DNA of 63,590 nucleotides, counting the filler, from Theionarchaea archaeon (GTDB lineage Archaea > Methanobacteriota_B > Thermococci > Methanofastidiosales > SZ-28-30), in assembly GCA_018992565.1 (NCBI GenBank). It is 6 parts of 6 records of this genome, joined end to end, with 100 filler letters (N's around TTAATTAATTAA, not from the genome) between each part and the next. Parts side by side here need not be neighbours in the genome. Positions count along the whole stretch, not along the records: positions 46,470 to 53,731 come from JACVGW010000108.1; 5 more parts are not named here. The stretch is one strand, 5' to 3'. The stretch's first letter is position 1; every line of letters begins with the position of its first letter. A program made the position numbers. Below, in pieces: positions 48,001 to 51,000 of this stretch.

Positions 48001-51000
48001 GAGAACCTTTATAAAGCCGAGGTTCCTTCTCTAAAAGAGAGGTGAATAGATGGAGAACGTCAAGATACAAAACGTTGTTACATCGGCCACCCTGAATGAA
48101 ACCATTGATCTGGAACGAATAGCCACTGCTGTGGAAGATATTGAATACGAACCTGAGCAGTTTCCAGGTTTGGTCCTGCGGCTTGATGATCCGAAGACTG
48201 CTACCCTTGTGTTTGGTTCTGGAAAACTAGTGTGCACAGGGGCAAAGTCACCGGAGGAGTCCAGAAGGGCCATCTACAAGATCATTGATCTACTCAAGAA
48301 GGAAGACACCCCTATTCCTGATCCGGTGTGGCAGGTGCGATGGAGTGGTGACGGCGCTGAACACGCATTCGAGGGAACAATAACCGCTCAGTCCATCAAG
48401 AATGTAAAGTACGTAGATGAAGAGCAGAGAAAAAAAGAGCTCAAGAAAGACAAGATAAAAAACGATAAGAATACTATCACCTTTACAGGGTCTGCATTGG
48501 AGGGTCAAAGAGGTATTAATTTTGAAGCTGAAGGTGTTATTACCTTTGATATCAAGGTGGACTCCGAGTACAAGCCTGAATCTGTCTTTGTGGGTAAGAA
48601 TAAGACCAACCCTCCTGAAATCCCCTTTGAACTGAGAGAACAGCCCACGCTGTCGGGACTGGATTCCATAAATCCCGCTCGTGAACCTCGCCACATTCCC
48701 GGGGAAGATGCAGGGGTATTCGTGTGGTTCAGAGGACCTGAGATTGTTGTTCAAAATATTGTGGCTTCTGCAGACCTGGGTGTTGAATTAAACTTAGATG
48801 CAATTGTCTTTGGTCTTCCCAACTGTGAATATGAGCCTGAACAATTTCCAGGGCTAATCTACAGGTTGAAAAAACCCAAAGTAGTTCTCTTGTTGTTTGG
48901 TTCAGGTAAGATTGTGTGTACTGGTGCAAAGACTAGAGAAGACGTGGAGAATGCAATAGTTGAAGTCAGGAGAGCACTCAGAAAGATAGGCGTGAAAATG
49001 TGATCGGATGCAGATACCGTATGCATTCATAGGAAAACTCCTCATTTTCTCTCTTGTTTTCCTTTTCATTGCTGCAGCTATTTCGCTGGTGCTGGGATTC
49101 ATTTTACTGCGAAAAGGAGTCATGATTTTACCCAGATTCGTCCTGTATGTTATCGACAGTCTGTATTTTCTGCTGAAGAAGCTAGTCCGCCTTGTGGGAC
49201 TGAGTGAACGGTTTGTTGACGAAATAGGTATTGAAATACGCAACAGAACCTATGAGAAAGGATTCACCAAATCACGAGCAGACGGAAGGATTCTGGTCTT
49301 CCCTCAGTGCCTTCGCAGCCCCAAGTGTCCTGGTCCTCTGACCCAGTACGGGATTCAATGCAAGATGTGCGGACAGTGTGTCATAGGGGACTTGAAGAAG
49401 AAAGCGGAAGCTGTGGGGTATAAGGTGTACATTGTACCAGGAGGAAGTTTTGTAAAGCGTATCGCGAAAAAAGACAGGCCCACAGGAGCTCTGGGTGTGG
49501 CCTGTGGATATGAGCTCAACTATAGTATGATGGAGATTTCAGCTCTCTGCCCCGTACAGGGTGTTCCTCTCTTAAAAGATGGATGCTACTGCACCAAAGT
49601 GGATGAAGAACTGGTTCTGGAAAAGCTGTTGCTGGGCATCACCGAGACATCTGCAGAAAGAGAAGAACCTGAGGAAGAAGGAAGAGAAGAGGGAGAGAGG
49701 CACAAGGCTCCCAAGGTGACAGTATGACGGTGATAACTGATAACCACATGCACCTGGACAAGAAAGGGTTATACCTGGAGGCTGTGCACCAGTTCAAGAG
49801 AGCGGGAGGAGGACGGATTATCCTGGTTCAGAAACCAGGGTTTCCCCAGACTATAGAAGAATTTGTACAGCAGGTTGAACAGACACTGACCATGTGTCAG
49901 GAAGTGAGGCAAATTGTGGAATGTTACCCTGTGGTGGGGTTGCATCCGGCTGAATTTGACAGGTTGTTCAACAAGGGGAAAGAGGACGTATGTTATCAGG
50001 CCCTGGATACTGTAGAATTGTATATACAGGAAAAAAAGGTTGTGGGTATGGGAGAATTCGGGAGACCACATTATCCTGTCTCAGAGCAGACCTATCAGGC
50101 TTCCCATGAATACATGATCCAAGCGTTGATACGTTCCCGGGAACTTGACTGTCCCATCCAGCTGCACACTGAATCACTGGATAGTGCTGGCATTGAAGCT
50201 CTTGACAGATTGATTAAGGAACTGGGCTGCTCACGCGTTATTAAGCATTTTGCTCCTCCCATTCCTGAGTATGACAGCATGACCCCTTCCATTCTGGCCA
50301 CTGAGTCCAATATCACCCAGGCTGTAACCTCCGGGATGAAGTTCTTCATGGAGACTGATTACATAGATGACCCACGGAGACCGGGTGCAGTGCTGGGTCC
50401 AAAGACTGTTCCCAGGACCACATTGAAGCTTCTGGCTGAAGGCGTTCTCACTGAGGACATGGTGGTCCGAATCCACGACCAGGATATACCCTCGCTGTAC
50501 AACCTGTGAACTAGCCCAGGGAAATTACCACGGTCGCACTGGGTCCCAGTCCTGTGGCAGTCTTGGCACTGATGGCAACCATGAAGTCCCCTGAATTGAG
50601 GATACACTTGCCGTAAGAATCGCCCGGCTCATCCCAGTCTTTGGCAAATACTTCGCTCATGTCCAGTCGATACACTCCTTCATTGAACTTCGCGGGATAC
50701 ACGATGGCCGAACACGAATACGTGCATCCGCTCCCGGATGTGAAGGTCCATTCAACATAAAAGTATTCTACAGGAAATGGATACGTTGTATGAAAGTAGA
50801 TGTCTGCATACTGGACAGGATCCACTCCAAGAGAGAAGGTCATGGGCGGAGTATCAATAATGACTTCTGGCTGGCTGGAGATGGGAGACTCTTCATCAGT
50901 TGACCCTGCAGCATCCTCACCTCCCGGAAACAAGGAAATGACACTTCCACGTTCATTGTTCTTGACAACTCTGATGTAGTGCCATGGACTCTGGGCTCCA

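What a model noticed while it worked through the whole genome (the two positions that open the first line are those of the whole stretch)
48050..49003. The only TATA-binding protein carries a conserved 146-residue domain inserted between its two repeats
The single TBP gene of this genome (g01382) encodes 317 instead of ~185 residues because a 146-residue, beta-rich segment (residues 86-231) is inserted exactly between the two TBP repeats. I read it as a lineage-specific accessory domain built into the general transcription factor of Theionarchaea, most likely a regulatory or extra DNA/protein-contact module that sits on the pre-initiation complex at every promoter. New would be the first TBP with an internal domain, i.e. 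a natural experiment on how the saddle tolerates and uses an insertion, in a lineage that has no second TBP to fall back on.
Evidence so far: Pfam TBP repeats at residues 4-84 and 232-312 of one open frame; six-frame scan of the whole genome with PF00352 finds only these two repeats. Same 317-aa frame in congener G032 (97% identical over all 317 residues), the part assembled in G033 (residues 205-317, 98%) includes the end of the insert; the sister genus G031 and 27 other genomes of the order have ordinary TBPs in frames of mostly 181-202 aa whose two repeats abut. Search of 5.8 billion proteins with the insert alone: 18 clusters, all 314-317 aa TBPs named or placed as Theionarchaea (DG-70-1 among them), insert 72-82% identical, nothing else at E<=0.01 among proteins of 174-555 aa. 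In 16 aligned sequences 62 of 146 insert position [...]
(Added by a program. Inside this text positions count along the whole contig: they may not be those of the stretch shown here. "Call 12" and the like, gene names such as g00115 and contig names such as C1 are that model's own, and its searches are not shown. The text may have been shortened before it was handed on; [...] marks where a part breaks off. The agent that wrote the report below was given it as the finding of a first reader that could run no searches.)

Follow-up and report, generated by a model that had tools for sequence, protein, structure and literature searches.

The report
TBP with a grafted beta-sandwich domain
The only TATA-binding protein of this uncultured archaeal genus carries, between its two halves, a 138-residue domain borrowed from a family of secreted repeat proteins, which makes it a rare natural experiment on one of the most conserved transcription factors.

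Summary
Window 48050-49003 (+) is one 317-aa frame with two full TBP repeats split by a foreign segment. Compared with the sister genus, the insert is residues 90-227 (138 aa). It is the only TBP found in G000, G032 and G033. It is absent from the 27 other two-repeat TBPs of the order.

The insert is coding and constrained: dN/dS is 0.06-0.07 and changes are mostly at third positions.

New here: the insert is not an orphan. An exhaustive profile search found 121 other proteins with the same domain. It is an unnamed beta-sandwich repeat of secreted-type proteins (NHL, FG-GAP/ASPIC, GH8, beta-helix). None was found in 133 genomes of the phylum.

The insert equals one period of a tandem array, cut out of register. 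Its first and last strands are the partners of one hairpin, so its ends should meet. That would explain how a short linker tolerates it.

Its function is unknown. Positions invariant only in the TBP version suggest a selected contact module. A tolerated passenger remains a serious rival.

The parts
48008..48015 (+). TATA-like box TTTATAAA, 34 nt before the ATG, preceded by a purine-rich stretch
   Evidence: Read directly from the sequence; not tested further.
48039..48045 (+). Shine-Dalgarno-like GAGGTGA, 4 nt before the ATG
   Evidence: Read directly.
48050..49003 (+). TBP gene, 317 codons plus stop
   Evidence: ORF list; PF00352 214 bits; archaeal TBP structures at E 2e-52.
48050..48316 (+). 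TBP repeat 1 with the start of the linker (residues 1-89). Residues 87-89 (TPI) match the sister-genus linker.
   Evidence: Nearly invariant in 20 carriers. dN/dS 0.00-0.012 in the unsaturated pairs.
48317..48730 (+). Foreign insert, residues 90-227 (138 aa)
   Evidence: Boundaries come from the comparison with the G031 TBP. Homology to the repeat family.
48326..48634 (+). Core beta-sandwich of the insert (residues 93-195), from WQVRWSGDG to NPPEIPFEL. It corresponds to the ~103-residue canonical domain of the family.
   Evidence: Single-domain family proteins match profile positions 8-110 only. Alignment. pLDDT is mostly above 90.
48410..48475 (+). Lys/Glu-rich loop (residues 121-142), 5 residues longer than in 28 of 29 aligned family fragments, net charge +2
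48635..48712 (+). Former inter-repeat linker (residues 196-221). REQPTLS (196-202) is invariant in carriers but variable in the family.
   Evidence: Column entropies 0 versus 2.9-3.7 bits. dN/dS 0.02-0.04. pLDDT 61 for residues 196-205.
48713..48730 (+). Closing strand GVFVWF (residues 222-227). It is homologous to the first strand (GYFIW) of the next repeat in tandem arrays.
   Evidence: Alignment. Predicted as strand E137-143 of the model (residues 222-228) at pLDDT ~93.
48731..49000 (+). Rest of the linker (RGPEI) and TBP repeat 2 (residues 228-317)
49008..49727 (+). Downstream DUF116 gene starting 4 nt after the TBP stop, followed by a TatD-like gene (49724-50509). This is context only.
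   Evidence: G032 has ORFs of similar size and order around its TBP; their families were not checked.

Best explanation
What it is (well supported). This is a working TBP gene. In the stem of this Theionarchaea genus, one period (138 aa) of a tandem beta-sandwich repeat was inserted in frame into the short linker between helix H2 of repeat 1 and strand S1' of repeat 2. The repeat comes from a secreted-type protein family absent from the rest of the phylum, so it was probably acquired horizontally.

The excerpt is out of register. It starts at the family's second strand (W-x-V-R-W), runs through the core and the old inter-repeat linker, and ends with the first strand (G-x-F-x-W) of the next repeat. 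In the canonical domain these two strands are joined by a 3-8 residue turn. In the TBP version they should therefore pair and bring the two ends of the insert together. It is a natural circular permutation. This would explain why the saddle, its DNA-binding underside and its TFB-binding stirrup stay intact. The invariant Pro-rich connectors (TPIPDP and RGPE) suggest a fixed rather than floppy attachment.

What it does (inferred). I think it is a selected accessory module on the convex or lateral face of TBP, present at every promoter. Most likely it is a docking surface for another protein. A contact of the Lys-rich loop with flanking DNA is the second option. After the graft, the family's acidic G-x-D-G-x-D-F motif and its His were replaced (Q95, R154, N157), and new invariant patches appeared.

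Steps shown: the anatomy, the homology, the selection and the phyletic pattern. Steps inferred: the hairpin closure, the position on the complex, and the function.
For: The TBP is intact. Both repeats score 108-111 bits, like ordinary TBPs of the order. The core is almost invariant in 20 carriers, including F38, F55, F266 and F283.

It appears to be the sole TBP. Only these repeats pass the cut-off in G000, G032 and G033.

It is translated and constrained. There is no stop and only a single one-residue indel in 20 sequences. Differences in the insert by codon position are 9/2/31 up to 24/10/77. dN/dS is 0.066 and 0.063 in the two pairs where dS is not saturated, against <=0.015 in the repeats.

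It belongs to a domain family. 122 proteins score E<=1e-3 and 25 score <=1e-10, with up to 7 copies per protein. The alignment shows 24-41% identity and shared W94, R97, W98, G109, D134, F145, G155, F158, F166, D171, G182, P192.

The register is shifted. Single-domain proteins match profile positions 8-110 only, and array periods of 132-144 aa bracket the 138-aa insert. In canonical proteins the G-Y-F-I-W strand lies just before W-H-x-R-W. In TBP it lies at the C-terminal end.

The model of the insert has pLDDT 88.3 and pTM 0.85, with both terminal strands above 90.

The graft looks foreign. No other copy was found in G000, in 133 genomes of the phylum or in 34 genomes of the order with the broad family profile.

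There are hints of function. REQPTLS 196-202, EAEGV 159-163, K133, D139, K183 and Y174 are invariant in carriers but have 2.6-3.7 bits of entropy in the family. The former linker has the lowest dN/dS of the insert, 0.02-0.04.

RNA-library contigs match the gene with 0-1 mismatches across 48506-48950, and one of them bridges the junction from insert to repeat 2.
Against: There is no protein-level evidence and no biochemistry.

The RNA evidence comes from one study and from assembled contigs. DNA carry-over cannot be excluded, and the 5' junction is not covered.

All carriers are metagenome-derived. G000 is 88% complete, so a second TBP cannot be strictly excluded.

Purifying selection on an insert inside an essential protein could reflect only the need to stay folded and harmless.

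The insert is slightly acidic overall, with net charge -9 to +2 in 16 carriers. That does not favour a DNA-binding role for the whole domain.

Both genera have the same complement of two ordinary-length TFB genes, so there is no obvious co-varying partner.

Fold matches are generic: Z<=6.0, and Foldseek gives nothing at E<=1e-3.

The position of the linker on the complex is recalled from published TBP structures and was not computed here. I could not inspect model coordinates, so the pairing of the two terminal strands rests on homology and confidence values.
Confidence: 0.55

Rival explanations
1. Tolerated passenger. The repeat period landed by chance in a permissive loop and was fixed by drift. 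It is now kept only because any unfolded or truncated version would damage an essential protein, and it adds no activity to TBP.
For: The donor family is extracellular and has no link to transcription. The geometry of the graft alone explains tolerance. The insert evolves about 5-10 times faster than the repeats at non-synonymous sites. Both genera have the same two TFB genes. Precise deletion of 414 nt is a rare event.
Against: The insert has been retained without length change, apart from one residue in 1 of 20 sequences, through saturating synonymous divergence. The strongest constraint lies on the former linker and on surface-type positions that are free to vary in the donor family. That is not what foldability alone predicts.
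Confidence: 0.3
2. Regulatory lid. The module, or its conserved acidic linker (residues 196-221), folds back on the saddle and competes with DNA or TFB. It would act like the TAND region of TAF1 in eukaryotes (comparison recalled), making promoter binding conditional.
For: The conserved, partly acidic linker has low model confidence (pLDDT 61 for residues 196-205) and zero variation at REQPTLS. These are features of a short docking motif.
Against: There is no evidence of contact with the saddle. The connectors are short and Pro-rich, which limits reach to the concave face. As the apparent sole TBP, it must work at all promoters.
Confidence: 0.08
3. The insert is removed before the protein acts, either as an intein or as an archaeal bulge-helix-bulge mRNA intron.
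For: Its size (138 aa) is in the mini-intein range, and it sits in a conserved essential protein.
Against: There is no Cys/Ser/Thr nucleophile at the start, and no His-Asn followed by Cys/Ser/Thr at the end. No Pfam family matches at E<=1. Instead it is clearly homologous to a non-intein beta-sandwich family. Substitutions follow codon periodicity and the frame is kept in 20 sequences. An RNA-library contig runs colinearly across the 3' junction, and no joints were reported.
Confidence: 0.01
4. Assembly or binning artefact, or a decaying gene copy, with the true ordinary TBP lying in the unassembled part of the genome.
For: G000 is 88% complete and fragmented into 154 contigs.
Against: The same architecture is found in 18 protein clusters from NCBI, JGI, ENA and Logan assemblies. 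It is also found in independent contigs up to 164 kb, diverged by 21-24% at the DNA level but with a perfect frame. G032 (91% complete) and G033 (84%) also show no other TBP.
Confidence: 0.02

Closest known systems
Ordinary archaeal TBP (for example Pyrococcus woesei, PDB 1pcz/1ais)
   Same: It has two PF00352 repeats, E 2e-52 to 1pcz, and the conserved Phe pairs and G-S-G-K motifs.
   Different: The ~9-residue linker between the repeats carries a 138-residue foreign domain. Only 1 of 10 NCBIfam TBP models (NF001593) still reaches its cut-off.
TBPs with terminal additions: the eukaryotic N-terminal domain (recalled), Lys-rich N-terminal extensions (P0154, and P0155 named Thermoplasmata) and acidic C-terminal tails (P0179, P0187)
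   Same: These are lineage-specific additions to an unchanged saddle. The N-terminus enters strand S1 and the linker enters S1', which are pseudo-symmetric sites (recalled topology).
   Different: Those additions are terminal and of low complexity. This one is internal and is a folded globular domain.
Unnamed beta-sandwich repeat family (W-H-x-R-W-S-G-D-G ... G-x-D-G-x-D-F ... N-P-x-x-x-P-F) of secreted-type NHL, FG-GAP/ASPIC, GH8 and beta-helix proteins and of small proteins with a hydrophobic N-terminal segment
   Same: The profile match is significant, identity is 24-41%, and the core motif positions are shared.
   Different: The TBP copy is circularly permuted, has no signal peptide, has lost the acidic motif and the His (Q95, R154, N157), has a longer Lys/Glu loop, and sits inside a cytoplasmic transcription factor. 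Neither Pfam nor NCBIfam has a model for this domain (IMP2_N reaches 24.9 bits, just under its 25-bit cut-off, on two family proteins), and no solved structure matches beyond E 0.004.
Ig-like adhesin and cohesin modules (Als9-2 2y7m, RspB 3v10, CLIPPER 9ifr, Cna 2f6a)
   Same: They share the general beta-sandwich architecture: Z 5.7-6.0, rmsd 3.4-3.8 A over 89-98 residues.
   Different: The scores are in the range of common arrangements, sequence identity is 7-16%, and Foldseek finds nothing at E<=1e-3. This is a resemblance, not membership.
Factors that dock on the convex face of eukaryotic TBP (TAF1 TAND, NC2, Mot1, Brf1; recalled)
   Same: They would be functional analogues if the insert provides or occupies a docking surface on the upper side of the saddle.
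   Different: Those factors are separate polypeptides. Here the module is covalently built in. No archaeal counterpart was examined here.

Membership tests
TATA-box-binding protein (PF00352 x2) | Two TBP repeats above the Pfam gathering score in one polypeptide | tested here: met
   214.2 bits against a cut-off of 22.9, in two stretches. The two repeats score 108.6 and 111.1 bits in the six-frame scan.
TATA-box-binding protein (PF00352 x2) | Conserved core residues of the DNA-binding sheet (the role of the paired Phe is recalled) | tested here: met
   F38, F55, F266 and F283 and the surrounding motifs are invariant in 20 carriers. Repeat 2 aligns with 1pcz. Their role in DNA kinking is recalled, not tested.
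TATA-box-binding protein (PF00352 x2) | Repeats joined by a short linker of about 9 residues | tested here: not met
   138 extra residues lie between TPI and RGPEI, compared with G031's TPIKGEPEI. All 27 other two-repeat TBPs of the order have abutting repeats.
Unnamed secreted beta-sandwich repeat family | Significant profile match and shared core motif positions | tested here: met
   (25 proteins at E<=1e-10). (W94, R97, W98, G109, D134, F145, G155, F158, F166, D171, G182, P192 shared).
Unnamed secreted beta-sandwich repeat family | Canonical strand order: the G-Y-F-I-W strand lies directly before W-H-x-R-W | tested here: not met
   In TBP the G-V-F-V-W-F strand lies at the C-terminal end of the insert, and nothing like it precedes WQVRW. 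The canonical order is seen in P0047, P0050, P0027, P0048, P0059 and P0119.
Unnamed secreted beta-sandwich repeat family | Acidic G-x-D-G-x-D-F motif and His in W-H-x-R-W | tested here: not met
   The family has D in 19/29 and 24/29 fragments and H in 24/29. Carriers have R154, N157 and Q95 instead (Q95 and N157 invariant, R154 nearly so).
Unnamed secreted beta-sandwich repeat family | Secreted or cell-surface context | tested here: not met
   84 of 121 family proteins have a hydrophobic N-terminal segment by a crude rule, and their co-domains are extracellular types. The TBP has none of this.
Intein (HINT domain) | N-terminal Cys/Ser/Thr nucleophile; C-terminal His-Asn followed by Cys/Ser/Thr; match to a Hint/intein model | tested here: not met
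   The boundaries read TPI|PDPVW...FVWF|RGPEI. No Pfam family matches at E<=1.
Archaeal mRNA intron (bulge-helix-bulge) | Non-coding evolution of the inserted stretch and removal from the RNA | tested here: not met
   Changes are biased to the third position, dN/dS is ~0.065, and the frame is kept. An RNA-library contig is colinear across the 3' junction. The BHB motif itself was not searched.
Ig-like adhesin/cohesin folds | Structural superposition clearly above background | tested here: inconclusive
   The best match has Z 6.0 with rmsd 3.8 A over 95 residues. Foldseek's best is E 0.076.

The most novel reading that the evidence does not exclude
A core general transcription factor acquired, by horizontal transfer from a secreted-protein gene, one out-of-register period of a tandem repeat. 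This natural circular permutant was then remodelled into a built-in docking platform on the upper face of TBP. If so, every pre-initiation complex of this archaeal lineage carries an extra, lineage-specific interaction surface. That would be an archaeal, covalent counterpart of the factors that regulate eukaryotic TBP through its convex side.
Probability: 0.35. Interest if true: 0.85.

Novelty: new variant of a known kind. Interest (0 to 1): 0.72.

Why it matters
TBP is among the most conserved proteins of archaea and eukaryotes. Its known variation is at the termini or in copy number.

Here a folded foreign domain sits inside what appears to be the only TBP of a lineage. It shows that the H2-S1' linker is a permissive site. 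It also gives a concrete rule for tolerance: the ends of the insert meet because it is one period of a repeat array.

It offers a ready-made pair for experiments, namely the insert-bearing TBP and the 87%-identical sister-genus TBP without it. These can be used to ask what a module on the upper face of the saddle does to promoter binding and factor recruitment.

It also defines a widespread, still unnamed domain family of secreted-type proteins. Finally, it is an unusual example of a secreted-type repeat domain being recruited into the cytoplasmic transcription machinery.

Tried and rejected
- Word-index search with the insert alone, lengths 80-256 aa: nothing at E<=1. The exhaustive search later showed this was a limit of the method.
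- ESM Atlas feature search: no usable hit.
- Partial tblastn hits L036-L039 from the metagenome scan are chance word matches: L037 looks like a WD-repeat protein and L036 like GroES, by eye.
- The first full-length model had a confident insert but low-confidence repeats, because the alignment was shallow.
- The mixed full-length alignment A3 was misaligned (family fragments were spread over the repeats) and was not used for anything.
- Complex prediction with the sister-genus TBP core plus the insert: no answer, score 0.00. This is not evidence either way.
- Looking for the donor's taxon failed. Cluster look-up gave no names. A tblastn of P0023 against plasmids gave no match. The viral scan with A4 was not possible because the alignment had no conserved stretch.
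- NCBIfam has no model for the domain. The profile against PDB sequences gave only E 0.004 to a designed Ig protein.
- The TFB complement does not differ between the genera.
- RNA runs X5-X7 of a second study held next to none of the sampled words. The parts of the gene before 48506 had no contig cover in X1-X4. Neither is evidence of absence.
- The composition profile shows no GC anomaly over the insert.
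Full report
1. The observation

Window 48050-49003 (+) is a single 317-codon frame with an ATG start. 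A TTTATAAA box lies at 48008-48015 and a GAGGTGA Shine-Dalgarno-like site at 48039-48045. Pfam finds two TBP repeats (214 bits) and nothing in the middle 146 residues at E<=1. NCBIfam finds only TBP models. Solved archaeal TBPs align at E 2e-52, with repeat 2 starting near residue 227.

The window is a join of contigs. This gene lies on contig C83 of genome G000, which is 2.80 Mb in 154 contigs and 88.39% complete.

2. Is it the only TBP, and who else has it?

In G000 only these two repeats exceed the PF00352 cut-off. The three other candidates have E 0.17-1.2.

In the order, 32 of 34 genomes have a match. G032 has the same 317-aa frame. G033 has the last 114 residues at a contig end. The sister genus G031 has a 202-aa frame. 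Twenty-seven other genomes have abutting repeats in frames of 156-195 aa. G021 shows only a single-repeat ORF. G001 and G026 show nothing.

The insert as a protein query finds only the three congeners, among 133 genomes of the class searched.

That three genomes of 84-91% completeness all lack a second TBP makes a hidden ordinary copy unlikely. This is inference, not proof.

3. Boundaries

The G031 TBP reads ...LLKGEGTPIKGEPEITVQNIV. The window reads ...LLKKEDTPI[PDPVW...GVFVWF]RGPEIVVQNIV.

Other long TBPs turned up in the protein search. They have three repeats, or Lys-rich N-terminal or acidic C-terminal extensions. None of the 14 that I read has an internal foreign domain.

4. Is the insert translated and selected?

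In 20 carriers there is no stop and only one single-residue deletion. The repeats are almost invariant, while the insert is 72-94% identical to the window.

Four DNA lineages differ at 21-24% of gene positions. In the insert the differences fall mostly on third positions, for example 24/8/77. dN/dS is 0.066 and 0.063 in the two pairs where dS is not saturated, against 0.00-0.015 in the repeats. The C-terminal part of the insert (183-227) is more constrained (0.024-0.038) than the core (0.09-0.11).

Four metatranscriptome runs of one study hold parts of the gene. Five of their contigs match with 0-1 mismatches over 48506-48950. One contig (48698-48852) bridges the junction from insert to repeat 2 with more than 31 nt on both sides. 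No joints were reported. This is weak support only: the data are contigs from a single study, DNA carry-over is possible, and the 5' junction is not covered.

5. The insert is not an orphan

A profile of 16 inserts (A2) was run against 1.84 billion representatives. It found 122 proteins at E<=1e-3, 25 at <=1e-10 and 4 at <=1e-30. One of the 122 is the TBP cluster itself.

The other 121 carry 1-7 copies of the same domain. Of the 80 that I scanned, many also carry NHL propellers, FG-GAP/ASPIC-UnbV, GH8, beta-helix/NosD, PKD, He_PIG, CARDB, cohesin, Big_5, Calx-beta, peptidoglycan-binding, subtilase, VWA, sulfatase or Kazal domains. None carries a nucleic-acid-related family (21 proteins at E<=1e-3; 59 proteins at E<=1e-8, of which 34 had a hit).

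By a crude hydrophobicity rule, 84 of 121 have an N-terminal hydrophobic segment, and 8 of those have a lipobox-like motif.

The domain itself has no Pfam model; IMP2_N reaches 24.9 bits against a cut-off of 25 on P0023 and 23.5 on P0025. It has no NCBIfam model and no solved relative by sequence.

The alignment of 16 inserts with 29 family fragments is clean, at 24-41% identity. The shared positions are W94, R97, W98, G109, D134, F145, G155, F158, F166, D171, G182 and P192.

In a FastTree of 184 domain copies the TBP inserts form one clade (support 0.97). Their sisters are the copies in P0059 and P0119 (support 0.82). P0059 is an FG-GAP/ASPIC protein and both have a lipobox-like N-terminus.

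I could not name the donor's taxon. Neither the narrow nor the broad profile finds another copy in G000, in 133 genomes of the phylum or in the 34 genomes of the order. A foreign origin is the simplest reading.

6. How the graft fits

Single-domain proteins match only profile positions 8-110, often up to their last residue (P0047 60-162 of 164; P0068 47-151 of 151). Just upstream they carry a G-Y-F-I-W-x-D strand, 3-8 residues before W-H-x-R-W (P0047, P0050 and P0027; P0059 and P0119; P0048 and P0120).

In tandem arrays the period is 132-144 aa. The TBP insert is 138 aa. It starts at W-Q-V-R-W and runs through the core (93-195) and the stretch that corresponds to the inter-repeat linker (196-221). 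It ends with G-V-F-V-W-F, which aligns with the first strand of the next repeat.

It is therefore one array period taken out of register, which makes it a circular permutant of the domain. The two strands that are hairpin neighbours in the canonical domain now form the two ends of the insert. These ends should meet, so the old linker residues TPI and RGPEI need to be only a turn's width apart.

With the family in the alignment, the insert models at pLDDT 88.3 and pTM 0.85. Both terminal strands (residues 93-99 and 222-228) lie in blocks above 90. Residues 196-205 score 61. I could not inspect coordinates, so the pairing is inferred.

The connectors TPIPDP and RGPE are invariant in 20 carriers and rich in proline. 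This suggests a fixed orientation.

Fold searches give only generic beta-sandwich matches. These are adhesin, pilin and cohesin modules with a best Z of 6.0, rmsd 3.8 A over 95 residues. Foldseek gives nothing at E<=1e-3.

7. What changed after the graft

The family's His in W-H-x-R-W (24/29) and the two Asp in G-x-D-G-x-D-F (19/29 and 24/29) are Q95, R154 and N157 in the carriers.

The loop 121-142 is 5 residues longer than in 28 of the 29 family fragments and is Lys/Glu-rich, with net charge +2.

The core is near neutral in 15 of the 16 carriers (-2 to +4; one is -8). It is -6 to -16 in 15 of the 29 family fragments, including most of the tandem-array ones.

REQPTLS (196-202), EAEGV (159-163), E108, A113, K133, D139, Y174 and K183 are invariant in carriers. 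The same columns have 2.0-3.7 bits of entropy in the family.

I read the loss of the acidic and His positions as the loss of a possible cation site on moving into the cytoplasm. This is inference.

8. Function

From published TBP structures (recalled, not computed here), H2 lies on the convex side and S1' is at the centre of the sheet. The module should therefore sit on the upper or lateral face near the pseudo-dyad, away from the concave DNA face and the C-terminal stirrup that binds TFB.

Three things make me favour a selected contact module, most likely a protein-docking surface: retention through saturating divergence, the strongest constraint falling on what used to be a free linker, and the new invariant patches. 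The net acidic charge of the insert (-9 to +2) argues against DNA binding by the whole domain. The Lys-rich loop could still touch DNA.

A passenger kept only for foldability remains a serious rival. Both genera have two ordinary TFB genes. The one docking prediction that I ran gave no answer (see Tried and rejected).

9. Rejected readings

Intein: there are no nucleophile or His-Asn boundaries and no Pfam match, and the insert is homologous to a non-intein family.

mRNA intron: the insert shows codon periodicity and a conserved frame, and an RNA-library contig is colinear across the 3' junction.

Artefact: there are 18 clusters from four kinds of source and contigs up to 164 kb.

10. Novelty

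Three full-text searches were run: Theionarchaea + TATA-binding protein, TATA-binding protein + domain insertion + archaea, and Theionarchaea + transcription factor. I saw only the listings, and none has a title or abstract about this. The TBP-domain superfamily search led me to two TBP evolution papers.

In PMC7221094 and PMC3597702 I read only the passages found for 'linker', 'insertion' and related terms. None describes an internal domain. The 'domain insertion' passage in PMC6672047 concerns TAF1.

I did not read supplements. Subscription journals are not covered by the library.

I file this as a new variant of a known kind: a TBP with an internal, permuted accessory domain.

Noticed in passing
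Genus g5 of the same order, e.g. G012:C1:60221-60472 (not in the window): 15 of 17 genomes of genus g5 carry a separate ORF of ~103 aa with a single TBP repeat (PF00352 53-63 bits). In 14 of them it lies beside a normal two-repeat TBP; G021 shows only this ORF.
   Followed up: no
Proteins P0145-P0149: These are TBP-like proteins of 272-278 aa on short ENA contigs (1.5-11.7 kb). The three that I read (P0145, P0146, P0149) have three consecutive TBP repeats. They could be real triplications or assembly effects.
   Followed up: partly
Proteins P0154, P0155, P0164, P0165, P0179, P0187: These are archaeal TBPs with Lys-rich N-terminal extensions (one is named Thermoplasmata) or long acidic C-terminal tails. 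They are terminal, low-complexity additions, in contrast with the internal folded domain here.
   Followed up: no
window 1-31034, ~46200-46650 and 46470 onward: The window is a join of contigs: 1-31034 is contig C76, and C83 begins at 46470 according to the finding's note. GC drops to 0.33 around 46200-46650, next to that boundary.
   Followed up: no
window 46955-47842, 49008-49727, 49724-50509: The TBP is flanked upstream by an SPFH/Band 7 gene. Four nt after its stop comes a DUF116 gene, which overlaps a TatD-like gene, in an operon-like arrangement. G032 has ORFs of similar size and order. G031 has a different downstream gene, by eye.
   Followed up: partly
Proteins P0059 and P0119: In these proteins with a lipobox-like N-terminus, the closest relatives of the TBP insert in my tree, the same domain is preceded by FG-GAP-like sequence. 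In P0059 it is also followed by FG-GAP repeats. The family may therefore be prone to being inserted into other folds.
   Followed up: partly
Proteins P0023 and P0025: The start of the family repeat gives sub-threshold hits to Pfam IMP2_N (PF18590; 24.9 and 23.5 bits, cut-off 25). This may be a remote link or chance.
   Followed up: no
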